Assembly: GCA_035708545.1 (NCBI GenBank)
Contig: DASSSG010000213.1
Coordinates: forward strand, 1-24,361
Reading direction: 5' to 3'
From: Bryobacteraceae bacterium
GTDB taxonomy: Bacteria > Acidobacteriota > Terriglobia > Bryobacterales > Bryobacteraceae
DNA: 24,361 nucleotides
The position numbers and the translations under genes are program-made. Below are positions 1,885-24,359 of the stretch, one piece after another. Position 1 is the stretch's first letter. Each line of letters begins with the position of its first letter. The notes below the pieces were generated by a model. The model saw only the letters and a list, made by a program, of their open reading frames with translations, ran no database searches and was not told the origin of the DNA.

Positions 1885-2679
1885 GTGGTGCTGGATACCG
1901 CCCTGATCTACGCAATGTGGCAGCACGCACCGTTCGCGAATCTCTGTGTGGGAGACACGGAGGTGCATCTGTGGCTGGTGCCGCTGGCCACTTCATCGGA
2001 AACCCTCGCCCTCGCGAGCGCGTTGTTATCGCTCGAGGAGACGGCTCGCGCGCGGCGGTTCCACCTCGAGAAGGACCGGGCCGCGTGTATTGCCAGCCGC
2101 GCCGTTCTGCGCACGCTGATCGCCCAATACACCGGGATGCCTCCACGTGCAATCGTCTTTGAATACGCGTCGACCGGGAAACCACGACTCGCCGGCGGCC
2201 ACGATCTGCACTTCAATGTCGCCCATTCCGGCGCTCTGGCCCTGTACGGATTTGCGCGTCACTACGAACTGGGAGTCGATATCGAATACGTGCGTGAAAC
2301 GCCCGACCTGGCGGCGATAGCGGACCGGTTTCTCAATGCCGGCGAACGCGGTGATCTCGCAAGCATCTCCGGTCCAGCCAAAACACGGGCATTCTATGAT
2401 TGCTGGACGCGGAAGGAAGCCCTGCTGAAGGCGACCGGGGCCGGCATCTCCGCCGGGCTCGACACCTTTCGTGTCTCCCTTCTGCCGTTTGAGCCGGCGC
2501 GGGTGCTCGCCGGAGACGGCGAATTCGCGCCGGACAGGTGGTCGCTGGTTGATGCGGTGCTCGGCGGCAATTACCGAGGTGCGCTGGCCATTCGCGGATC
2601 GGGATGGCATGTGCGGGCGTGCGCCTGTCGTGACGCGGCGCTCTGCTTGACGCGGGGTATCGCTGAGGATGAGCAGTGA
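1885..2679 (+). CDS. Sfp-type 4'-phosphopantetheinyl transferase
   Basis: Motifs VHLW, R..L..Y, GKP, HFNVAHSG, GVDIE and WTRKEALLKATGAG. The start could be GTG 1885 or ATG 1915. The stop overlaps the next start (GTGA). Confidence 0.93.
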   Translation: MVLDTALIYAMWQHAPFANLCVGDTEVHLWLVPLATSSETLALASALLSLEETARARRFHLEKDRAACIASRAVLRTLIAQYTGMPPRAIVFEYASTGKPRLAGGHDLHFNVAHSGALALYGFARHYELGVDIEYVRETPDLAAIADRFLNAGERGDLASISGPAKTRAFYDCWTRKEALLKATGAGISAGLDTFRVSLLPFEPARVLAGDGEFAPDRWSLVDAVLGGNYRGALAIRGSGWHVRACACRDAALCLTRGIAEDEQ

Positions 2680-4241
2680 AGGACCGCAACCGTCGCTGCG
2701 TGTCCGCGTACCACGAAACGGCAGTCCAGATTGGGGAGACTATCCTCGACTCCGGAGGAAACGCGTTCGACGCATTCGTCGCCTCAACCGCCGCGACTTA
2801 CGTCCTCGGAGAAGGTACTACGAGTCTGGCAGGCTGCTTGGGAGCGCTCACGTACAATGCGCGTACGCGGACGGTGGAGTATCTGGACGCGGATTTCAAT
2901 GAACCCAAAACCCGAAAACGCTGGTGGCGCCGAAGCTCGCCGCCGGGCAACACCGTTCCCGTTCCCGGAGCGGTCGCGGGCCTCGAAGCGCTTTCGAGGA
3001 AGTACGGGCGGTTCAGCTTCGCCGACGCGCTCGCTCCCGCAATCGCGCTGGCGCGCACCGGGTTTCACATCACCAAGTATTACGCTTCAGTGATCAGCGC
3101 GCGCTCACCAGTGCTCCAGCGTAGTGAATACGGCCGCCGGACGTTCTTTCCGGAGGAACGTCCGCTGCGCGAGGGCGATGTCCTCCGCCAGCCCGACGTC
3201 GCTGACTTTCTGACTAATATTGCGCGCTACGGCGCGGAGTACATGTACAACGGCCCGTGGGGCCGGCAGTTCGTCGAAACAGTTCGGGAGCGCGGCGGAT
3301 TGATAAAAAACGATGATCTGGCCGCATACACCGTCGAATGGCGGCAGCCGTGGACGATATCGTACCGGGAGCACGAGGTGTATGCCTGCTCCGGCTTCAC
3401 CTTCGGGGGCCTCTGGACGCTCGTGGCGCTAAAGACGCTGGAGAATATAGCTCCCCCATTTCCGGAGCACTTCTCAACTGCGCCCCAGATGCTGGAAGTC
3501 CTGCTCCGGCTTGCTCGCCAGGTTGATTCGGAAGCGTGGCTGTTCAACTACAAACAGCTCGCGAACCGCGAATACGTTCAATCGCGCCTTGCTCCTGAGT
3601 ACGTCGCCAACATCTGGAGCAGGGTGCAGGCAAGCGGATGCGGAAATTCCACCCGGTCGGGAACCGCGCACAGCTACCACGTCATCGCCATCGACCACGA
3701 AGGGAACGCGGTTACCGGGACAAACACGATCGAATCGGCTCCGTGGGCTGATGGGATCTTCGTGCAGGGCATCCCACTGTCGAATGCGCTGAAAATCCCG
3801 TACGGGACCCGTCCGGGAAAGCGGCGGCTCAATCTGCTGTCAATGCACCTGGTCCTGCGTGACGGCGCATTGCGTTTCGCTATCGGCGCATTCGCGAGTT
3901 CGTTGATCGAAGCGTCTCTCCAGTTCCTCGTAAACCTGATCGATTATCGGCTCAGCCCGGCAGAAGCTGCTCGTCTTCCACGCTTCGGCACCATTCCATT
4001 TGAACTGAACTCCGACGGCGACATCGTCTGGTGCGACACGTCGCGGAACTGGCTCGACAAGCGAGTGAACCCCGAGGTCGTGACCACGCTCGAGAGCCGC
4101 GGTCTGTTATTTCACCAGGAGCATATCGATACGGGACTGGGCAACATCGTCGTGGTCAACGAGGATGGCACCTTGCAGTCCGCGACCACTCCCGTTCAGC
4201 AGTCCGAACCCACACGCGCCAACGTGTCGGAGAACTATTGA
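2676..4241 (+). CDS. Gamma-glutamyltransferase-fold Ntn-hydrolase, atypical (Ser nucleophile, gamma-Glu pocket residues replaced), no signal peptide
   Basis: GGT-family motifs GGNAFDAFVA, VPVPGAVAGLEAL..KYG, LAPAIALARTGF, DLAAY, H..AID.EGNAV..T.TIE, PGKR and PRF. The current stop TGA (4239-4241) lies inside the IS end. Confidence 0.85.
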   Translation: MKDRNRRCVSAYHETAVQIGETILDSGGNAFDAFVASTAATYVLGEGTTSLAGCLGALTYNARTRTVEYLDADFNEPKTRKRWWRRSSPPGNTVPVPGAVAGLEALSRKYGRFSFADALAPAIALARTGFHITKYYASVISARSPVLQRSEYGRRTFFPEERPLREGDVLRQPDVADFLTNIARYGAEYMYNGPWGRQFVETVRERGGLIKNDDLAAYTVEWRQPWTISYREHEVYACSGFTFGGLWTLVALKTLENIAPPFPEHFSTAPQMLEVLLRLARQVDSEAWLFNYKQLANREYVQSRLAPEYVANIWSRVQASGCGNSTRSGTAHSYHVIAIDHEGNAVTGTNTIESAPWADGIFVQGIPLSNALKIPYGTRPGKRRLNLLSMHLVLRDGALRFAIGAFASSLIEASLQFLVNLIDYRLSPAEAARLPRFGTIPFELNSDGDIVWCDTSRNWLDKRVNPEVVTTLESRGLLFHQEHIDTGLGNIVVVNEDGTLQSATTPVQQSEPTRANVSENY

Positions 4242-4262
4242 TCTTCGTAAAATAGGGTGACA
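4238..4262 (+). repeat. IS630 left terminal inverted repeat (25 bp)
   Basis: TTGATCTTCGTAAAATAGGGTGACA versus the reverse complement of the right end, TTGAGGTTCGGATAATACAGTGACA: 19/25 identical by manual alignment. Confidence 0.88.
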
Positions 4263-4292
4263 GATTGGACAGTGCTGTGCGAATATGTGGGT

Positions 4293-4811
4293 ATGAGCCC
4301 CCGCGCGGCGCAGAAGAGGGATTTCGATAAATTAGAGCGGCGGCGGATGGCCGCGGCTAGGTTGCTCAACCGAGGAATCAGCCAGGCAGAAGTCGCGAGG
4401 CGAGTGAAAGTAAGTCGCGAAAGCGTTCGCCGTTGGTCGAATCAGATCCGTCAGCATGGTTCCGCCGCGGCCTTGAAGAAGGCCGGCCGAGCAGGCCGAA
4501 AGCCGGGGTTAACCGCGGCCGACTTGCGGAAACTCGAAGCAATCCTGCGCGCGGGACCGGAGAAAACCGGATTCACCAACGGACTGTGGACGCTCGATCG
4601 CATCGGCGAGGTCATCCGGAACGAGTTTCGGATCGATTATCACGCCGGCCATGTTTGGTGGATCCTGCGCCGGAAGCTCGGCTGGAGTTGTCAGCGGCCG
4701 GTCGGGCGAGCTCGCGAGCGAAACGAGGCAGCGATCCGCCAGTGGAAGGAAGAAACCTGGCCCGCGCTTAAAAAAAAGCCCGGAAAGAGGGCCGGATCAT
4801 CGTCTTCGTAG
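4293..4811 (+). CDS. IS630 transposase OrfA (N-terminal HTH / winged-helix part)
   Basis: HTH SQAEVARRVKVSRESVRRW, GRKP, GLWTLDRIGEVI, WILRRKLGWSCQRP..RARERNE and W.EETWPALKKK. ATG 4293 is preferred because GTG 4257 lies inside the TIR. Confidence 0.88.
   Translation: MSPRAAQKRDFDKLERRRMAAARLLNRGISQAEVARRVKVSRESVRRWSNQIRQHGSAAALKKAGRAGRKPGLTAADLRKLEAILRAGPEKTGFTNGLWTLDRIGEVIRNEFRIDYHAGHVWWILRRKLGWSCQRPVGRARERNEAAIRQWKEETWPALKKKPGKRAGSSSS
4769..4778 (+). promoter_or_regulatory. Programmed frameshift / slippage site T-A8-G
   Basis: An A run at 4770-4777 lies at the OrfA/OrfB junction. A -1 shift joins WPALKK to KARKEGRIIVFVDESG, the usual IS630 arrangement. Confidence 0.8.
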
Positions 4812-5308
4812 ACGAGAGCGGCGTCAGTCAGCGTCCGCATCGGGTGCGTACGTGGTCGAAACGGGGCGTGACGCCGATTCTGCAGCACCAGTTCAATTGG
4901 GACAATCTGTCGGTTGCCGCCGGAATCACGCTGTGGCAGTTCTACTTCCGGATGTACGACGGAACCATGGGCAAGGAGGACGTCCTCGATTTCGTCCGCC
5001 ATCTCAACAAACAGATCACGCAGCCCATTCTGCTGATCTGGGATCGTCTTCCCGGACACCGCAGCCGACTGGTCCAGGACTATCTCGCCAGCTTGCACGG
5101 CAAGATCGAGGCGTTCTATCTGCCCGCTTACGCTCCTGAGTTGCATCCGGCCGAGTACATCTGGGCCCACCTGAAACAGCATGAACTGGCTAACTTCTGT
5201 CCACGCGACCTCTGGAGCCTGTCAGCTGAAGCGCGCTCGGCACTCACCTCCATGCAGCGTCGTCACACGATTGTTACCGCCTGCTGGAAACAGGCTTCTT
5301 TGTTCTAA
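4775..5308 (+). CDS. IS630 transposase OrfB (DDE catalytic domain), reached by -1 frameshift; fused product about 338 aa
   Basis: The -1 frame reads KARKEGRIIVFVDESG...RTWSKRGVTP, then LIWDRLPGH and YAPELHPAEYIWAHLK. These supply D, D and E. The first Asp lies upstream of the ORF-track start at 4844. Confidence 0.88.
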   Translation, partial: KARKEGRIIVFVDESGVSQRPHRVRTWSKRGVTPILQHQFNWDNLSVAAGITLWQFYFRMYDGTMGKEDVLDFVRHLNKQITQPILLIWDRLPGHRSRLVQDYLASLHGKIEAFYLPAYAPELHPAEYIWAHLKQHELANFCPRDLWSLSAEARSALTSMQRRHTIVTACWKQASLF

Positions 5309-5310
5309 CT

Positions 5311-5335
5311 TGTCACTGTATTATCCGAACCTCAA
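5311..5335 (-). repeat. IS630 right terminal inverted repeat (25 bp)
   Basis: TGTCACTGTATTATCCGAACCTCAA, complementary to the left end at 19/25 positions and followed by TA. Confidence 0.88.
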
Positions 5336-7230
5336 TAGATTTTACCGGCGCAATCGCGGGGAATCGCCAGACTGAGGTACTGGTCTCCGTCACGGGCCAT
5401 GATCCTGAGCTGCACCATGCGATCAAGCCAGGTCCTGAGTTCCGCGCCGCCAGGACCGTTGCGCTCGCAGGCGTCGCTATTCAGTGTTTCAATCGAAACG
5501 AATGCAGGATTTTCGTGACCGTTGCGCAGCATCCGCTCGATCGCGACCACCGGGCGCGTCTGGTCGCAGAACTCGTAGACTCGCTTCTCCCAGCCTTGCA
5601 ACTGTGTAGACCGCTGGACCGGATCAGGGCGCATATCGCGGATCATCAGGAGATCCTCGCTCAGCGCATCTGACACCAGGGACGCGCCGCCAGCGTGGGC
5701 CTCGCGCCAGGCGGCAACCCGGTTTTCGATCGGACCTATATAGGCAGACGTGTCCACAGTGTCGGCGTAGTCGTAATCGAAGAAATAAGCGATGTCGGAC
5801 AAATCCGACTCGGGCAGGGGATACAGATATTTGTAGATTTCCATGGGGCGGACTTTCACCATCCCCAGCGAGGCGGGATCCTGAAAGTACGGACTGAAGC
5901 GGTCCAGGCGGATCCTGCCGGTGCCCTCCGGCGGCGGCAGGTGCGCCAGGCACTCCAGCAGCGGCATCATCTCTTCGTAATCGCGAGCGCTTTCGCCGGG
6001 AAACCCGTACAGGAAATTCCAGGTCGGCCGCACGCCGAATTGCCGGCACCACTTGAGCAGCTGCACGTTTTGCAGGGGCGAAACGCCTTTACGCATCAGG
6101 TTGAGAATGTGTTGATGGAGACTCTCGATGCCGGGCTGAATCCATGTGATGCCGGCATCCGCGAGCAGACGGACCTGTTCCTTTGTCAGATTCGCCTTCA
6201 CCTCATAGAAGAAGGTCAGATCCAGCTTTCGGCGCTTCAGCTCGGGCAGAAGATCGCGGAAGTACTGCATGTCAATGATGTTGTCTACTGTCGCGATCTC
6301 ATGCAGCGGGTAATGCGAAACCAGATGATCGAGTTCGGCCAGTACCCGGTCCTTGCTCTTCGCACGATAATGCATCGTCTCCCGGTTCAGGCCGCAAAAT
6401 GTGCAGTGATGTTTGGCGCCCCACCAGCAGCCGCGCGAGGTTTCCATCTGGAGCTTGAGCGGAATTTCCCAGGGAATCGAGCTGTGCTCAAGCTGCAGGA
6501 AGTAATCATGGAATTCCGGAAAGGACAGCGCATCCAGATCCTCGACGGCCCGCGGTGGTGCCGCGAAGACGCTGCCGTTTCCGTTACGGTAAATCAACCC
6601 GGGAATATCGTCCACCGGCCGGCGATGAAGGATGCGGTCCACAAACTCCGGAAAACTTTGGTCCGACTCGCCGGAGAACACGTAGTCCAGAAACGGGAAG
6701 CAGCGGTGCAGTCCGAGGCCCATGCGGTCCTCGCAATTGGCTCCGCCCATGACGGTTGTCTTGGCCGGGTACCACTGTTTCACCGCGCAGGCCAGAGCGA
6801 GCGACGGCAGATTCTGCTCGAACGTGGACGTGAAGCCCACGATTGAATACCGATCCCATGCCGTGGACGCGAGGCAGTAGTCCAGGAACGGTTCCACGAA
6901 CCGCCGCAGCCACACCACGGAATTCAGAACCTCCGGCTCGACAAACCGCTCGCCGCGCAGATAGCGAATGTAGGCGTTGCCGTCCGGTATCTGACCGCGA
7001 AACATATGGTCAGCGAATACCCATTCGCCGATGAAAAGGGTGTGGCTCATATATTCGCTGACCCATTCGTAATACGGCGCGCCGACCCAGTCCGCGAACT
7101 CGATATTGAAGTTCCGGATGTCGCATGGGATTCCGCGCCGGCGTACCGCGGACTGCAGGTTGCCGATTCCGATCGGAGGGCGATCCACGCCGGCGAACGG
7201 CATGTTGATCAGCAGGACGCCACCACTCAT
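5332..7230 (-). CDS. Cobalamin-dependent (class B) radical SAM enzyme, RiPP-maturation type (TIGR03975 / PoyB-PoyC-like), probable C-methyltransferase
   Basis: N-terminal B12-binding region (MPFA..RPPIGIG; VGFTSTFEQN...VMGGANC). ETSRGCWWGAKHHCTFCGLN gives CX7CX2C (Cys codons 6427-29, 6403-05, 6394-96). Also DNIIDM, FYEVKANL, IQPGIESL, WNFLYGFPGE, RLDRFSPYF and C-terminal YLSLA. RBS GGAGGT lies 6 nt before the ATG. The stop lies in the IS right end. Confidence 0.92.
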   Translation of the reverse strand: MSGGVLLINMPFAGVDRPPIGIGNLQSAVRRRGIPCDIRNFNIEFADWVGAPYYEWVSEYMSHTLFIGEWVFADHMFRGQIPDGNAYIRYLRGERFVEPEVLNSVVWLRRFVEPFLDYCLASTAWDRYSIVGFTSTFEQNLPSLALACAVKQWYPAKTTVMGGANCEDRMGLGLHRCFPFLDYVFSGESDQSFPEFVDRILHRRPVDDIPGLIYRNGNGSVFAAPPRAVEDLDALSFPEFHDYFLQLEHSSIPWEIPLKLQMETSRGCWWGAKHHCTFCGLNRETMHYRAKSKDRVLAELDHLVSHYPLHEIATVDNIIDMQYFRDLLPELKRRKLDLTFFYEVKANLTKEQVRLLADAGITWIQPGIESLHQHILNLMRKGVSPLQNVQLLKWCRQFGVRPTWNFLYGFPGESARDYEEMMPLLECLAHLPPPEGTGRIRLDRFSPYFQDPASLGMVKVRPMEIYKYLYPLPESDLSDIAYFFDYDYADTVDTSAYIGPIENRVAAWREAHAGGASLVSDALSEDLLMIRDMRPDPVQRSTQLQGWEKRVYEFCDQTRPVVAIERMLRNGHENPAFVSIETLNSDACERNGPGGAELRTWLDRMVQLRIMARDGDQYLSLAIPRDCAGKIY

Positions 7231-7263: not shown

Positions 7264-7821
7264 TCAGCCGGACAGCGCCTCCAGCCTGACCTGGATTTTC
7301 TCGAGGCGGTTGATGGTAGGCTGCACACTCGGCAGCAATCGTTCGAGCTCAGCCCGATAAGAATCGAACGCGCGCTCGCTGGCTCCGGCAACGCGGGTCG
7401 CGGTTGAAACGTCAGACTTGCCGAATCGACGCACATAGGCCTGAATTTCCTGGCCCTGCGCTATCAGTCGGATATCTTCCTGCACAGAATCAGCAAGCTG
7501 CTTACCTTTCTCCAGCAGATCCCGCACATACTGCCTGCACTCGGGAAGGCAGGCTTCCCGTTCGTGCTCGTCGATGGTTTCGAGATAACGCAAATAAGCC
7601 TCGATGTCAGTCGGCATCCGTTCGAGAAATTGCAGCACCGCGGAGTGCTCTCCAAGCGCATGCGTGTATTTGGACAGCAGCGGTCCTTTAATCGAGGAAT
7701 CGGCGTGAATATTCGCCGGCGCGGACACCGCACCTGACGACATCGACGCGAAGTAATCTGAGTAACCCTGAAGATACGCGCACCATATCCGTTCCTCCGG
7801 AGACTGCGACGAACCGATCAT
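7264..7821 (-). CDS. Hypothetical protein, 185 aa, apparently alpha-helical
   Basis: Its ATG overlaps the TGA of the upstream NRPS (ATGA), and it fills the gap before the radical SAM gene. No family motif recognised. Confidence 0.7.
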   Translation of the reverse strand: MIGSSQSPEERIWCAYLQGYSDYFASMSSGAVSAPANIHADSSIKGPLLSKYTHALGEHSAVLQFLERMPTDIEAYLRYLETIDEHEREACLPECRQYVRDLLEKGKQLADSVQEDIRLIAQGQEIQAYVRRFGKSDVSTATRVAGASERAFDSYRAELERLLPSVQPTINRLEKIQVRLEALSG

Positions 7822-21380: not shown

Positions 21381-24359
21381 TCATCGTGCTCCTTGCAGCA
21401 GATTTTGGGCGTGCTCCTCGCTCAGGCCGCCGATCTCCTTCAATAACGCGTCTTCAATCACTTCAGCCAGACCGGCGATCGTCGGCGACTGGAAGATGTG
21501 CTGCAGCGGCAGCTCGACCTGGAAGACCTTGCGCACGCGCGACATGAGCTGCGTCGCCATGAGCGAGTGACCGCCGAGCTCGGTGAAGAAGTTATTGTGT
21601 ATTCCGACCTGTTTGAGTCCCAGCAACTCACACCAGATGCTGGCCAGCTGCTCCTCAGCCGCGGTACGCGGACCGACGAACCGCTCTTCTGGATCGGACC
21701 AGTTCCGGTCTGGACCGGGCAGACTCCGCCGATCCACTTTGCCGTTCGGAGTTCTGGGCAAGGCGTTCAGGACGAGAAAAGCCGCGGGCGCCATGTGAGC
21801 GGGAAGCCGCTCGCCAAGGTAGCTGGCCAGCATCGGCCCGAGGTCCTGGGCTTTTTGCCCGGCCAGAGGATTGTTCGCATACGCCGTCCACGGTTTTGAC
21901 GCGGGCTTTGGCCGGGCCGGAAAATCGGCGACGCGCGGGCCGTCCGATGCGGAGCTTAAAAACAACGCGTTGAAGTCCGCCTCGGACGCCGAATACGCCC
22001 AACCGACCAGAACATCCCTGCCCAGCCCACGTCCGAGCGCCCAGAATGCCTCCGGCTCGACACCACGTCCGGCCAGTGTGGATACCGCCTCCTTCAACTC
22101 GGCGGCTGTCGAAGGCCCGTATGGATCGGCCAGCAACTCCAAAGCCCCCACGGCGGCCGAAAGCCGCGCATTGGGGACGCCGGTCACCAGAACATCGCCT
22201 GTGGCAGCATCCGTCAGCGCTTCCCCCAAAGCGGCGGCGCTGCCGAGGCGAGCCCATTCGAGGACCTGCACTTCGCTGGCACGGGCAGGCGAATGGCCGA
22301 TGCGAAGCGCGACATCGTACCGGAATATCGTGAGCTCGTTGTGATATTGTCCGCGCTTGAGCTGCTGCTCGACAGCTCCGATCCGCGGATTGCTCGCCGC
22401 AAATGCGGTGAAGAAAGCGGGATCGAGCAGCAGTTCCCGTTCCTGCGCCATGCGCTGTTCTACTCTCTGCCGCAGATGCGACAGCGGAAGAGAGCCCGGC
22501 ACCCGGTCGAGCTCTAACGAGGTAAGAAACGCCTTTGCCAGCGGCAGAGCGCGGACATCTCCCACAAAGACAGTTCCGCCGTCCGACAGCACCTGCACCG
22601 CGCCGTTGAGAACGCGCAGCAGGTATTCCACGCTCGGGAAATACTGCACGACCGAGTTCACAATGACGAGGTCAAACGCACCTTCCTCGAGTCCCTCGAA
22701 GTTCTCGGCGGAGCGCTCGAGCAATTCCACCTGCGCCAGAAGGAGGCGGTCTGCCTCGCGGCGCACGTGCGCCAGCGCGGCTGCCGAGAAGTCCGTTGCC
22801 ACATATCGCGAGCAGTACGACGCGATGCGGAAAAGCAAAAGCCCCGTGCCGCAGCCGATTTCCAGTACCCGGCGGGGATGGAGCCGAAGGATCCGTTCCA
22901 CCGTTCGGTCGACTTGCTCCTGCATCTCCGCAGTCGGGATAGGCAGCCCGGTGTAGCTGCTGTTCCAGCCGATGGTATTGAACGTCGGATCCGGCTGCGG
23001 ATTCGGTTGAAGGTAGATGTCATCGTACAATTCCCGCCAGCGGGCGACCTGCTCGGCACCCGGCGCATCCTCCTGCGCAAAGAGCGCGCGGTAAAACGGA
23101 TTCGCTCTGAAGGGTGCGCGTTCGTAGTACGAGCAGTAGTCGAATGCAATCTCTTCCCCGCTTTTCCGCACGAGTGCGCCACGCATTCGGTAATCCGGCG
23201 TCCAGCCGTTGTCGCTGGGTGCGGCGGCAAAGACTGCGCGGATCGAATCACCTTCCTCGACGGGCACACCGGGGTAGAAAACGGGGAAGAACACGGGGAG
23301 CCATGTGTATTCGCGGCTAAGCACGTCGATCAGCTCCTCACGGTCGGGCCACAGGTTCAGCCAGAGCAGGAATCCATCGAGTCGTGAAGCCTTGTTGATG
23401 GTCAGGCTGATGTCGCGTTCGTATGCCGGCGTGATGTGCGCGGTGAAATCCAGTTCCTCGGCCACAGCGGAGTTCGACAGGATATGCGAGTGCGGCAGAT
23501 TCTTCACACACACTCTCACGTCGAATGGATGTCCGACCTTTTCGAAGATCTTCTGCGTGTAGTGAGACGTCATGTCGCCGAACTTCGGACGGCCTGCAAG
23601 CGCGTCGGGCAGCGAGACGGCGGCGATCTTTGTTTCGCTTCGCCAGGGGATCATAACGCCCCCCGGCTTCAGAAAGCGCCACGCATTGTTGAGCAGCGGA
23701 ACGACGCCCTCGGAAGACGCGATAGTGCCGATCAGCTCGGACACGCATACGTCGACTTTTTCGGGAAGCTCAACTTCGAGAGAGTCGCCGTGGATGAGCG
23801 TAACCCTGTCTTCGAGCCCCAGGCTGCGGATCAGCGTGCGCGCCCCTTCGAACGAGTCATCGAGCATCTCGATTGCATACACGCGTTCAGCGCCGGCTTC
23901 GGCACAGATGCGCGCCAGAATCGCGTCCCTTCCCGTGCCGATATCGACGACAGTCTTGCCCCGGACCACGCGCTCAATGGCGGCTCGGTAGGCCGCGATG
24001 CGCGGTTCATCGTGCGTCATAGCGTAGTAGAGCAGCTCATCGTATATGAAGTACTCGCCCACCGAGGGCCACAGTTCCGGCTGTTTCCCGACGGGCACCA
24101 CGTAAGCGACGAGCACAGCGTCGCTTCGCTCCTCGTCGGTGCGCGCGACGACAACCGCGTCCTCAACGGCCGGATGGTCTTTCAGGTGTGCCTCGATTTC
24201 GCCGAGCTCGATCCGAAAGCCCCGTACCTTGACCTGCTGATCGACTCGGCCCATGTATTCAAGGGCGCCGTCCCTGCGGTAGCGGGCCAGGTCTCCAGTC
24301 CGGAACAAGCGGCTGCCTTCTTCGTCAGAGAACGGGTTCGCTATGAATTTGGCTCGCGT
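21381..24359 (-). CDS. NRPS, 5'-truncated: A(C-terminal part) interrupted by PRMT-like MT plus backbone N-MT, then A-subdomain and T
   Basis: The frame is open to the window edge (TRAKFIANPFSDEEGSRLFRTGD). A7/A8 motifs are followed by MT1 (about 23079-24080), MT2 (about 21864-23057), NGKVDR and T NFFTELGGHSL. Confidence 0.93.
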   Translation of the reverse strand, partial: TRAKFIANPFSDEEGSRLFRTGDLARYRRDGALEYMGRVDQQVKVRGFRIELGEIEAHLKDHPAVEDAVVVARTDEERSDAVLVAYVVPVGKQPELWPSVGEYFIYDELLYYAMTHDEPRIAAYRAAIERVVRGKTVVDIGTGRDAILARICAEAGAERVYAIEMLDDSFEGARTLIRSLGLEDRVTLIHGDSLEVELPEKVDVCVSELIGTIASSEGVVPLLNNAWRFLKPGGVMIPWRSETKIAAVSLPDALAGRPKFGDMTSHYTQKIFEKVGHPFDVRVCVKNLPHSHILSNSAVAEELDFTAHITPAYERDISLTINKASRLDGFLLWLNLWPDREELIDVLSREYTWLPVFFPVFYPGVPVEEGDSIRAVFAAAPSDNGWTPDYRMRGALVRKSGEEIAFDYCSYYERAPFRANPFYRALFAQEDAPGAEQVARWRELYDDIYLQPNPQPDPTFNTIGWNSSYTGLPIPTAEMQEQVDRTVERILRLHPRRVLEIGCGTGLLLFRIASYCSRYVATDFSAAALAHVRREADRLLLAQVELLERSAENFEGLEEGAFDLVIVNSVVQYFPSVEYLLRVLNGAVQVLSDGGTVFVGDVRALPLAKAFLTSLELDRVPGSLPLSHLRQRVEQRMAQERELLLDPAFFTAFAASNPRIGAVEQQLKRGQYHNELTIFRYDVALRIGHSPARASEVQVLEWARLGSAAALGEALTDAATGDVLVTGVPNARLSAAVGALELLADPYGPSTAAELKEAVSTLAGRGVEPEAFWALGRGLGRDVLVGWAYSASEADFNALFLSSASDGPRVADFPARPKPASKPWTAYANNPLAGQKAQDLGPMLASYLGERLPAHMAPAAFLVLNALPRTPNGKVDRRSLPGPDRNWSDPEERFVGPRTAAEEQLASIWCELLGLKQVGIHNNFFTELGGHSLMATQLMSRVRKVFQVELPLQHIFQSPTIAGLAEVIEDALLKEIGGLSEEHAQNLLQGAR

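What the first reader, a model, noticed from the sequence alone, without database searches (positions are those of the whole stretch)
21864..24080. Adenylation domain doubly interrupted by a protein-arginine-methyltransferase-like domain and an N-MT
Seen: between A8 and A9 sit two MTs. The first (about 23079-24080) shows PRMT hallmarks in order: EYF..Y...M..D..R..AY..AI, motif I VVDIGTG, VYAIE, VDVCVSELIGTIASSEG with an exact E-x8-E double-E loop (Glu codons 23736-38 and 23709-11), DGFLLW, and a THW-loop-like YTW (Trp 23301-03). The second is a canonical backbone N-MT. Known: the PRMT double-E loop (E144/E153 in PRMT1) positions the guanidinium. Back-to-back MT inserts are known (ColG, N,O-dimethyl-Ser), but with a side-chain O-MT. 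Inference: a trifunctional module making an N-alpha, N-omega-methylated Arg (or other side-chain-N-methylated residue) with a PRMT-fold enzyme acting on a carrier-bound amino acid. I know of no biochemical characterisation of such a domain, but could not search. The A pocket lies outside the window, so Arg selectivity is unverified.
Basis: partly seen in the sequence, partly recalled or inferred. Interest (0 to 1): 0.82.

Follow-up and report, generated by a model that had tools for sequence, protein, structure and literature searches.

The report
Known PRMT-fold methyltransferase pair in NRPS
The arginine-methyltransferase-like domain inside this peptide-synthetase module is real. It belongs to an already catalogued class of built-in side-chain methyltransferases known from O-methyl-tyrosine pathways such as didemnin and cryptophycin, so it is a new member of a known kind, although its exact substrate here is still unread.

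Summary
Between motifs A8 and A9 of a 5'-truncated minus-strand NRPS gene sit two methyltransferases. The first has a PRMT fold and an exact E-x8-E loop. The second is a canonical backbone N-methyltransferase.

The interpretation (N-alpha,N-omega-methyl-arginine, uncharacterised domain type) is not supported as stated. The first domain meets the published motifs of the type III M domain, Ms(O,Tyr,a8-a9). The pair has the published family 5b layout of interrupted A domains (DidJ, VatN, LynB3/5). It is 45% identical to DidJ (N,O-dimethyl-Tyr) and 52% to CrpC (O-methyl-Tyr). Both carry the same double-E loop, as do 95 of 96 relatives hosted by tyrosine-coded A domains. The double-E loop therefore does not indicate arginine.

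One caveat is new. This copy lies in a well-supported subclade with its own change inside the double-E loop (Ser for Gly). Every subclade host A domain that can be read has a non-canonical, uncharacterised pocket code (D-x-[LWVC]-D-[TI]-G-[MI]-I-[TG]). The window's own pocket is missing from the assembly and could not be recovered.

A tyrosine-like phenol is the most likely acceptor (about half). Another side chain is not excluded. Arginine specifically is unlikely. This scan has met the same family several times on other DNA.

The parts
21381..24359 (-). 5'-truncated NRPS gene (992 codons kept): ...A7-A8 / M_III / M_I / A9-A10 / T / docking-like tail, then the stop codon
   Evidence: ORF list and translation; Pfam AMP-binding_C, methyltransferase families, PRMT5 and PP-binding. 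The contig ends inside the A domain.
24192..24251 (-). A8 core motif GRVDQQVKVRGFRIELGEIE. A7 (FRTGDL) lies at 24288-24305.
   Evidence: Motif positions computed.
24093..24113 (-). A/M boundary LVAYVVP, the last A-domain strand before the insert. It matches the published boundary pattern L(V/A/I)(A/G)(Y/F)xxx.
   Evidence: pattern quoted from PMC8341866.
23079..24077 (-). PRMT-fold side-chain methyltransferase, type III M domain (residues 95-427 of the ORF)
   Evidence: PDB phmmer, PRMT6 E 7.5e-22. Foldseek, top 50 all PRMTs. 51.9% identity to CrpC and 45.5% to DidJ. Type III motifs i and iv match exactly; ii and iii match with conservative changes.
23922..23951 (-). SAM-binding motif I, VVDIGTGRDA. 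This is the GxGxxA variant typical of type III M domains. Post-I VYAIE lies at 23868-23882.
   Evidence: published description.
23706..23789 (-). Type III motif ii with the double-E loop, GDSLEVELPEKVDVCVSELIGTIASSEG. Glu codons at 23736-23738 and 23709-23711. The subclade-specific Ser (ORF residue 215) lies two residues before the second Glu.
   Evidence: aligned to the PRMT6 double-E loop.
23514..23549 (-). Type III motif iii, IFEKVGHPFDVR (FDLR is FDVR here)
23280..23309 (-). Type III motif iv at the position of the THW loop, YTWLPVFFPV. Trp codon at 23301-23303.
   Evidence: Trp is kept in 260 of 266 relatives. The residue before it is Cys in 80 of 96 Tyr-coded hosts and Ser or Asn in this subclade.
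21825..23042 (-). Type I backbone N-methyltransferase (M_I), directly after M_III
   Evidence: Pfam Methyltransf_25/11/12/31 at residues 497-605. Motifs GWNSSY, VLEIGCGTG, RYVATDFS, DLVIVNSVVQYFPSVEYL, ERELLLDPAFF, NELTIFRY.
21729..21806 (-). A9 (LPAHMAP) and A10 (NGKVDR): the A domain resumes after the two inserts
21561..21575 (-). Carrier (T) domain phosphopantetheine site GGHSL, the presumed holder of the methyl acceptor
   Evidence: Pfam PP-binding at residues 903-968.

Best explanation
This is a family 5b interrupted adenylation domain. Two SAM-dependent methyltransferases are spliced back to back into the A8-A9 loop of an NRPS A domain. The first is a PRMT-fold type III side-chain M domain. 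The second is a type I backbone N-methyltransferase. By analogy with the characterised ColG and TioS systems, the A domain loads its amino acid onto the downstream T domain, and the two inserts then methylate the carrier-bound aminoacyl thioester, once on the side chain and once on the alpha-amine. The residue is then passed to the next module (C-A(N-MT)-T, Leu-like code). By precedent from DidJ, VatN, LynB3/5 and CrpC, the side-chain step is most likely O-methylation of a tyrosine-like phenol, giving an N,O-dimethyl aromatic residue. Shown here: domain order, fold, family motifs and homology to DidJ and CrpC. Inferred: timing on the carrier, and the identity of the acceptor. The acceptor is uncertain because this copy belongs to a subclade whose host A domains carry an unassigned pocket code.
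For: Type III motifs i and iv match exactly; ii and iii match with conservative changes (SEI to SEL, FDLR to FDVR). The domain is 356 residues against a published 350 +/- 10. The order is side-chain M then N-M between a8 and a9, as in all published family 5 members. tblastn gives 51.9% identity over 95% of the domain to Nostoc ATCC 53789 CrpC (E 5e-106) and 45.5% to Tistrella DidJ (E 4e-84). DidJ reads C-A-M-M-T-TE and CrpC reads C-A-M-T-E. The lyngbyapeptin paper assigns the PRMT-like first MT of LynB3/5 to Tyr O-methylation. The family is large and NRPS-embedded: 612 representatives at E<=1e-30. The double-E loop is present in 95 of 96 members with canonical Tyr codes. A cyanobacterial member with an E239 code (DVENVGAIT) groups with the CrpC and Moorena Tyr O-MT domains in the quick tree (one row only). 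Related ApnA A1 codes such as DVESIGAIAK admit Tyr. Non-canonical host codes are therefore compatible with tyrosine.
Against: The window's own A pocket (A3-A6) is absent from the contig, from the rest of the assembly and from the public contigs searched. In both trees the query falls in a clade apart from DidJ and CrpC: 22 rows at SH-aLRT 99, and 43 rows at local support 91. In that clade no readable host code is a canonical Tyr code. The innermost 30 rows are 21 of 21 D-x-[LWVCA]-D-[TI]-G-x-x-x. That clade differs from Tyr-coded hosts at two fixed positions, one of them inside the double-E loop (Ser against Gly). No paper in the library lists these codes. The O-methyl-Tyr role of type III domains itself rests on product structures, not on assays.
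Confidence: 0.55

Rival explanations
1. The subclade has a different acceptor. The type III-like domain methylates a non-phenolic side chain other than arginine, for example a Lys or Orn amine, a Gln or Asn amide, or an aliphatic hydroxyl, on a residue chosen by the unassigned D278-type pocket.
For: The query's clade has no canonical Tyr host codes. It has fixed differences in the catalytic loops: G/S against A/G at domain positions 7 and 121, and Ser/Asn/Thr instead of Cys before the conserved Trp. Elsewhere in the family the loop covaries with the host code. Members hosted by Gln-like codes (DAQDIALVD, DAWQFGLID) have lost the first Glu, and members exist in pockets with three acidic residues (DPEDIGHVD). 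The D278/G301 scaffold resembles the classical Gln and Glu codes DAQDLGVVDK and DAKDLGVVDK as I recall them; I did not check those against a source.
Against: No characterised member of the family does anything but Tyr-type O-methylation. Both Glu, the Trp and all SAM motifs are kept exactly as in the Tyr enzymes. M-domain clades also follow host taxonomy (soil Acidobacteriota and Gemmatimonadota MAGs), so the D278 code could simply be another way to bind Tyr. The window's own A code is unknown.
Confidence: 0.3
2. The module activates arginine and the PRMT-fold domain methylates the guanidinium (N-omega), giving N-alpha,N-omega-methylated Arg.
For: True PRMT fold, intact double-E loop and SAM motifs. 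Some relatives sit in A domains whose codes (DVE[DNS][IV]GAIT) differ by one or two positions from the ApnA A1 codes that select Arg or Arg+Tyr. The nearest relatives keep one acidic pocket residue (D278).
Against: The double-E loop is equally intact in the O-methyl-Tyr enzymes DidJ and CrpC and in 95 of 96 Tyr-coded relatives, so it carries no information about arginine. The nearest relatives' codes lack E239 and an acidic residue at 331; the Arg-only ApnA codes carry E239 and E331. The THW histidine is absent. I know of no described NRPS product with N-omega-methyl-Arg made this way; this is from my own knowledge and was not searched exhaustively.
Confidence: 0.07
3. The PRMT-fold insert is catalytically silent, a structural relic, and only the backbone N-MT works.
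For: No positive evidence was found. Silent M domains are known in NRPSs in general (from my own knowledge).
Against: All SAM-binding and catalytic-loop residues conserved across 266 relatives are present: post-I Glu, Arg26, both Glu and Trp. The model is confident throughout the core.
Confidence: 0.05

Closest known systems
Family 5b interrupted A domains, A8-M_III-M_I-A9: DidJ (didemnin, Tistrella mobilis pTM3), VatN (vatiamides), LynB3/LynB5 (lyngbyapeptin B)
   Same: Same insertion site (a8-a9) and same order (side-chain M, then type I N-M). Same type III motifs and the same E-x8-E loop. 45.5% identity to the DidJ M_III domain.
   Different: Those members have Tyr-type A codes (DidJ: DASTLAAVC) and make N,O-dimethyl-Tyr. 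The window's M_III lies in a separate subclade with Ser instead of Gly in the double-E loop. Its relatives' A codes are of an unassigned D278 type.
Family 2b, single type III M domain: CrpC of cryptophycin synthetase (Nostoc sp. ATCC 53789), ThxA2
   Same: Closest named relative of the PRMT-fold domain: 51.9% identity, E 5e-106, Pfam PRMT5 hit in both.
   Different: CrpC has no N-MT behind the side-chain M domain. It has a Tyr-type code (DASTIAGIG) and the A-I-G-C loop signature, where the window has G-L-S-T.
Family 5a: ColG (columbamides), A8-M_II-M_I-A9, N,O-dimethyl-Ser
   Same: Back-to-back side-chain and backbone M domains in the a8-a9 loop. It is the only such trifunctional domain with published enzymology.
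   Different: The ColG side-chain domain is type II, with a different motif set (DVGx(N/H)xG and others). None of the six type II motifs occurs here.
Eukaryotic type I protein arginine methyltransferases (PRMT6, CARM1, PRMT1)
   Same: Whole-domain fold (Rossmann plus beta-barrel), N-terminal YFxxY / M..D..R helix, motif I, post-I Glu and double-E loop.
   Different: About 25% identity. It is embedded in an NRPS A domain, and the substrate is presumably a carrier-bound amino acid rather than a protein. The THW loop reads YTW. Characterised pathway relatives yield O-methyl-Tyr, not methyl-Arg.

Membership tests
Type III M domain, Ms(O,Tyr,a8-a9) (Lundy, Mori, Garneau-Tsodikova 2020) | Inserted between A-domain core motifs a8 and a9, after an L(V/A/I)(A/G)(Y/F)xxx boundary | tested here: met
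   A8 at ORF residues 37-56, LVAYVVP at 83-89, domain at 95-427, A9 at 852-858.
Type III M domain, Ms(O,Tyr,a8-a9) (Lundy, Mori, Garneau-Tsodikova 2020) | Motif i, V(V/L)(E/D)(I/V)GxGxxA (SAM site with GxGxxA) | tested here: met
   VVDIGTGRDA at residue 137.
Type III M domain, Ms(O,Tyr,a8-a9) (Lundy, Mori, Garneau-Tsodikova 2020) | Motif ii, GD-d-xx-d-x(L/I)PEx(A/V)(D/E)xC(V/I)SEI(V/I/F)GxI | tested here: met
   GDSLEVELPEKVDVCVSELIGTI matches except Ser at the third position and SEL for SEI. The strict pattern fails and the relaxed one matches. The same SEL occurs throughout the query's subclade.
Type III M domain, Ms(O,Tyr,a8-a9) (Lundy, Mori, Garneau-Tsodikova 2020) | Motif iii, (I/V)FxxxxxxFDLR, and motif iv, WLPV(F/Y)(F/L)P-d | tested here: met
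   IFEKVGHPFDVR (Leu to Val) and WLPVFFPV (exact).
Type III M domain, Ms(O,Tyr,a8-a9) (Lundy, Mori, Garneau-Tsodikova 2020) | Sequence homology to named members (DidJ; also CrpC, which I place in family 2b from its C-A-M-T-E layout and Pfam PRMT5 hit) and size of 350 +/- 10 residues | tested here: met
   E 4e-84 and 5e-106, 45-52% identity over 95% of the domain; 356 residues.
Type III M domain, Ms(O,Tyr,a8-a9) (Lundy, Mori, Garneau-Tsodikova 2020) | Host A domain selects Tyr or a Tyr analogue, and the product is O-methylated | tested here: inconclusive
   The A3-A6 part of the host domain is not in the window, the genome or the public contigs searched. The nearest relatives' codes are not canonical Tyr codes. 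The product is unknown.
Family 5b interrupted A domain (A8-M_III-M_I-A9) | A type III M domain followed immediately by a type I backbone N-MT within one a8-a9 interruption | tested here: met
   M_III ends at residue 427 and the type I domain begins about 30-40 residues later (phmmer envelope from residue 466, first motif GWNSSY at 464). Type I motifs i to vi are found, vi with one deviation.
Family 5a interrupted A domain (ColG type, M_II) | Type II motifs (EIFxxxxYxxxG, DVGx(N/H)xG, EPxP, FT(Y/F)YP, DLLK, WxxIxQ) | tested here: not met
   None of the six patterns occurs in the ORF.
Protein arginine methyltransferases (PRMT, type I) | PRMT fold: Rossmann domain plus beta-barrel | tested here: met
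   Foldseek top 50 all PRMTs, TM 0.70-0.77 over about 335-345 columns.
Protein arginine methyltransferases (PRMT, type I) | Double-E loop (E-x8-E) and THW loop | tested here: inconclusive
   The double-E loop is present and aligned to PRMT6. THW is replaced by YTW, with the His lost.
Protein arginine methyltransferases (PRMT, type I) | Methyl acceptor is an arginine guanidinium | not testable with these tools
   Pathway-linked relatives are tied to O-methyl-Tyr.

The most novel reading that the evidence does not exclude
The query's subclade of type III M domains is a separate acceptor-specificity class that methylates something other than a tyrosine phenol, possibly a side-chain nitrogen of a basic or amide residue. 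The subclade has 43 of the 266 sequences sampled, mostly from soil Acidobacteriota and Gemmatimonadota MAGs. It is marked by Gly7 and Ser121, by D278-type host A codes, and by frequent pairing with an N-MT. In at least four of the contigs examined the M module is followed directly by a GGT-like Ntn hydrolase. If true, PRMT-fold chemistry in NRPSs would reach beyond O-methyl-Tyr.
Probability: 0.35. Interest if true: 0.65.

Novelty: new member of a known kind. Interest (0 to 1): 0.3.

Why it matters
As it stands this is one more example of a catalogued trifunctional A domain, and its value is mainly for annotation. Automated tools and unaided readers keep flagging these inserts as 'arginine methyltransferases', and the double-E loop should not be read that way. 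The part worth keeping is the subclade result. The catalytic loops of these embedded PRMT-fold domains covary with the host A-domain pocket code. One uncultured-soil-bacteria clade, which includes this gene, has an unassigned pocket code. If its acceptor is not tyrosine, it would extend the chemistry of a domain type that still lacks any structure or direct enzymology, and would add a new part for engineering doubly methylated residues.

Tried and rejected
1. Recovering the missing 5' part of the A domain failed. No k-mer overlap of the contig ends with any of the other 842 contigs. tblastn of Tyr-type A domains against the whole assembly found only the window's own A domains and one distant ligase. 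The public metagenome scan gave nothing above 60% identity. An exact look-up of the downstream NRPS protein found no other contig. None of 40 related genomes holds the domain.

2. Literature look-ups of the relatives' pocket codes (DVLDTGMIT, DVWDTGMIT, DACDIG... and the DVE... series) gave no assignment. Only DVENAGVVTK was found, at the Ahp position of cyanopeptolin.

3. I first took residue 278 as the Ser/Thr of the P(S/T) motif. The resulting codes looked wrong. I corrected it to four residues upstream and checked it on DidJ, CrpC and the window's Pro-like domain.

4. I first recalled DVENAGVVTK as an Arg code. The paper showed otherwise, so that line of support for arginine was dropped.

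5. Cluster look-up of ten subclade members gave no informative names or accessions; all come from metagenomes.

It was rerun with permitted rows only.

7. PDB similarity of a relative's A domain (best single match a Txo2 module) reflects general relatedness, not specificity, and was not used.

8. Not run: complex prediction, the read-mapping tools (look-up of sequencing runs, read laying), and any AU test of clade membership.
Full report
WHAT IS THERE. The window is a whole 24,361-base contig of a fragmented assembly (843 contigs, 4.7 Mb, 77% complete). On the minus strand an NRPS gene runs off the contig end (21381-24359, 992 codons kept). Its order is A7, A8, a roughly 335-356-residue methyltransferase, a roughly 400-residue methyltransferase, A9, A10, T and a short docking-like tail. 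Downstream on the same strand lie C-A(N-MT)-T (code DAWFLGHVV, Leu-like), KS-AT-KR-ACP, a free methyltransferase, C-A-T (DVQFIAQVV, Pro-like), a 185-residue unknown protein and a radical SAM protein. On the plus strand lie a PPTase, a GGT-like protein and an IS630-type element.

CHECK OF THE OBSERVATION. The PRMT resemblance is statistically strong.
- phmmer against all PDB sequences returns only PRMTs at the top (PRMT6 E 7.5e-22), with SELIGTIASSE aligned on the PRMT6 double-E loop.
- Pfam PRMT5 passes its gathering threshold.
- An AlphaFold2 model built on 30 relatives (pLDDT 92.7) matches PRMT6, CARM1, PRMT8 and PRMT2 over both the Rossmann and beta-barrel halves (TM 0.70-0.77, E down to 1e-26). 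All 50 best hits are PRMTs.
- The second insert carries the published type I backbone N-MT motifs, motif vi with one deviation.
The only correction is that the 'THW-like' loop is YTW, so the histidine is missing.

WHAT IT IS. The literature already holds this architecture. Lundy, Mori and Garneau-Tsodikova (PMC8341866) sort interrupted A domains into families. Family 5b is A8-M_III-M_I-A9: a type III side-chain M domain, Ms(O,Tyr,a8-a9), immediately followed by a type I N-MT. Its representatives are DidJ (didemnin) and VatN (vatiamide), assigned from the N,O-dimethyl-Tyr in the products.

The type III motifs in their Table 1 are found here. Motif i is VVDIGTGRDA, including the unusual GxGxxA. 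Motif ii matches with SEI changed to SEL. Motif iii matches with FDLR changed to FDVR. Motif iv, WLPVFFPV, is exact. The size fits, and none of the six type II (KtzH/ColG) motifs is present. The lyngbyapeptin paper (PMC10127204) notes explicitly that the first MT of the LynB3/LynB5 pairs is about 30% similar to arginine methyltransferases. It assigns that MT to Tyr O-methylation.

I then tested homology directly. A tblastn of the domain against PLSDB plasmids hit Nostoc sp. ATCC 53789 (51.9% identity, E 5e-106) and Tistrella mobilis pTM3 (45.5%, E 4e-84). The Nostoc gene is a 1943-residue C-A-M-T-E protein between two megasynthase genes, one annotated type I PKS. This fits CrpC of the cryptophycin cluster (O-methyl-D-Tyr unit). 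The gene name, like DidJ below, is my inference from organism, replicon, size and domain order, because the records carry no gene names. The Tistrella gene is a 2163-residue C-A-M-M-T-TE protein, which fits DidJ.

Both carry the N-terminal ELWPS..E..VYDE.LY.AMT.D..R helix, GTGxDA, VYA(I/V)E, an exact E-x8-E loop (SEIVGPIGGSEG, SEIIGPIGGCEG) and CWLPV. Across 266 family members gathered here, the first Glu is kept in 245 and the second in 259. Among 96 members whose host A domain has a canonical Tyr code, 95 keep each Glu. The double-E loop is therefore a family trait inherited with the fold.

HOW COMMON IS IT. An exhaustive HMMER search of 1.84 billion representatives found 7,558 relatives at E<=1e-3 and 612 at E<=1e-30. 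The best 150 (E<1e-97) mostly lie in multidomain, NRPS-sized proteins. Of 153 domains in that set, 14 are followed directly by an N-MT. A scan of GTDB species genomes found 269 loci. The best 80 come from many cyanobacteria (Moorena, Okeania, Nostoc and others), from Acidobacteriota, Gemmatimonadota, Chloroflexota and Proteobacteria, and from a few other phyla. This scan's own notebook lists at least eight earlier reports of the same family on other DNA, all reaching the same classification. I had reached mine from the literature and the DidJ/CrpC comparison before reading them.

WHAT IS NOT SETTLED: THE ACCEPTOR. The contig ends between A6 and A7, so the pocket residues are missing, and I could not recover them. 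I therefore read the nine variable Stachelhaus positions of the host A domains of relatives, after correcting my first placement of position 278.

The hosts are more varied than 'Tyr'.
- Many carry DAST[IV]AAVC or DGTITAEV (Tyr), DAWTIAAVC (Phe/Tyr), DIFH.GL.. (Hpg-like) or DLGF[ST]GCVT (Hty-like).
- Others carry E239 codes (DVE[NDSE][IV]GAIT), Gln-like codes (DAWQFGLID, DAQDIALVD), or pockets with three acids (DPEDIGHVD).
- A further group has a hydrophobic residue at 239 and Asp at 278 (DVLDTGMIT, DVWDTGMIT, DAWDTGMVT, DACDIGIIG and similar).

In a FastTree of all 266 domains the query sits in a 30-row clade where all 21 readable hosts are of the D278 type. The enclosing 43-row clade (local support 91) holds 27 D278 hosts, 5 E239 hosts, 11 unreadable hosts and no canonical Tyr code. 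An IQ-TREE (LG+C20) quick tree of 69 rows recovers a 22-row clade at SH-aLRT 99 with 17 D278 hosts, 4 E239 hosts and the query. DidJ, CrpC, Moorena and every canonical Tyr, Hpg and Hty host lie on the other side. These are quick trees with SH-like support only. I ran no AU test.

Two alignment columns separate the 43-row clade from the 96 canonical Tyr hosts almost perfectly. One is Gly against Ala in WPSV(G/A)E. The other is Ser against Gly two residues before the second Glu of the double-E loop. In addition, the residue before the conserved Trp is Cys in 80 of 96 Tyr hosts but Ser or Asn in the clade, and Thr in the window. Back-to-back N-MTs are enriched in the clade (13 of 43 against 11 of 223).

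The predicted pocket of the window's A domain is thus D-x-[LWVC]-D-[TI]-G-[MI]-[IV]-[TG]. No paper in the library assigns this code.

HOW TO READ THAT. Two facts pull towards tyrosine all the same.
- The E239 codes are one or two positions from the ApnA A1 codes. For those, DVESIGAIAK admits Arg and Tyr, while DVEDIGAIEK admits Arg only (PMC5311044). The A domain of an E239 member has ApnA A1 (4d4g) as its best single-domain PDB match.
- A cyanobacterial E239 member's M domain groups with the CrpC and Moorena Tyr O-MT domains in the quick tree, although this rests on one row. A non-canonical code therefore need not mean a non-Tyr substrate.

Two facts pull the other way.
- Both M clades occur in the same phyla. 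For example, Longimicrobiaceae and Pyrinomonadaceae MAGs hold DAST-coded members of the other clade. Taxonomy alone does not explain the split.
- The catalytic loop visibly tracks the host code elsewhere in the family. Gln-coded hosts have Gln or Asn in place of the first Glu.

My estimate is about 55% for a Tyr-like phenol, about 30% for another non-Arg side chain, about 7% for Arg and about 5% for an inactive domain.

MECHANISM, WITH STATUS. Shown: an A domain split at a8-a9 by a PRMT-fold domain and an N-MT, each with an intact SAM-binding motif set, followed by a T domain. Inferred from ColG and TioS enzymology as cited in the papers read: the residue is adenylated, loaded on the T domain, methylated on the side chain and the alpha-amine while tethered, and then condensed by the next module. 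Inferred from the fold: the two Glu and the Trp loop hold and polarise the acceptor, a phenol OH in the known pathways, for in-line attack on the SAM methyl group.

CONTEXT NOTED. Homologues of the window's GGT-like gene (43-47% identity) lie directly after the M_III(-M_I) module in four other loci: L129, L025, L117 and L003. L129 and L025 also carry a PPTase and a UbiE-type methyltransferase like those in the window. In the two loci with called or readable context (L129, L025) the M module is the last NRPS module in view and no thioesterase is seen. This suggests a recurrent thioesterase-less cluster family. I did not pursue it.

VERDICT. The arginine reading and the novelty claim are not supported. 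This is a new member of a known kind (family 5b). It lies in an uncharacterised subclade whose acceptor deserves an experiment.

Noticed in passing
window 2676-4241 (+) and 1885-2679 (+); L129 15613-17718 and 18926-19654; L025 6644-8275; L117 3270-4760; L003 4163-5074: Homologues of the window's GGT-like Ntn-hydrolase gene (43-47% identity) lie immediately after the M_III(-M_I) module in four unrelated metagenomic or MAG loci. L129 and L025 also carry a PPTase and a UbiE-type methyltransferase like those in the window, and show no thioesterase. This looks like a recurrent thioesterase-less cluster family in which the GGT-like enzyme might release or process the chain.
   Followed up: partly
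P0113, P0133, P0115, L023 (first M domain); P0035, P0040, P0090, P0109: Some type III-like M domains sit in A domains whose pockets carry three acidic residues (DPEDIGHVD, DPENIGNVD), which suggests a basic substrate. Others sit in Gln-like pockets (DAQDIALVD, DAWQFGLID), and there the first Glu of the double-E loop is replaced by Gln or Asn. The family may cover more acceptors than tyrosine.
   Followed up: partly
P0008, L055, L059, L062 and other E239 hosts: Host A domains with codes DVE[NDS][IV]GAIT are one or two positions from the Arg/Tyr-bispecific ApnA A1 codes of Planktothrix. For P0008 (the one tested), ApnA A1 (4d4g) is the best single-domain PDB match. A PRMT-fold methyltransferase is thus hosted by relatives of an Arg/Tyr-bispecific A domain.
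   Followed up: partly
window 4257-5308 (+): Two ORFs with IS630/Tc1-type transposase domains (HTH_33 and DDE_3) lie between the convergent GGT-like and radical SAM genes.
   Followed up: no
window 5332-7230 (-) and 7264-7821 (-): A 632-residue radical SAM protein and a 185-residue protein with no Pfam match close the NRPS-PKS operon. No thioesterase, reductase or terminal C domain is seen in the window.
   Followed up: no
P0004 (2785 aa), residues 907-1221 and 2315-2646: One metagenomic NRPS carries two divergent type III-like M domains in two different A domains (codes DGLTVAGVN and DIFDFGTIF). Both are on long branches.
   Followed up: no
G000 against 40 related genomes: None of 40 genomes of the same family or order holds a relative of the PRMT-fold domain at E<=1e-30. 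The cluster is therefore sporadic in this lineage. The nearest relatives are in Gemmatimonadales and Pyrinomonadaceae MAGs (58-59% identity).
   Followed up: partly
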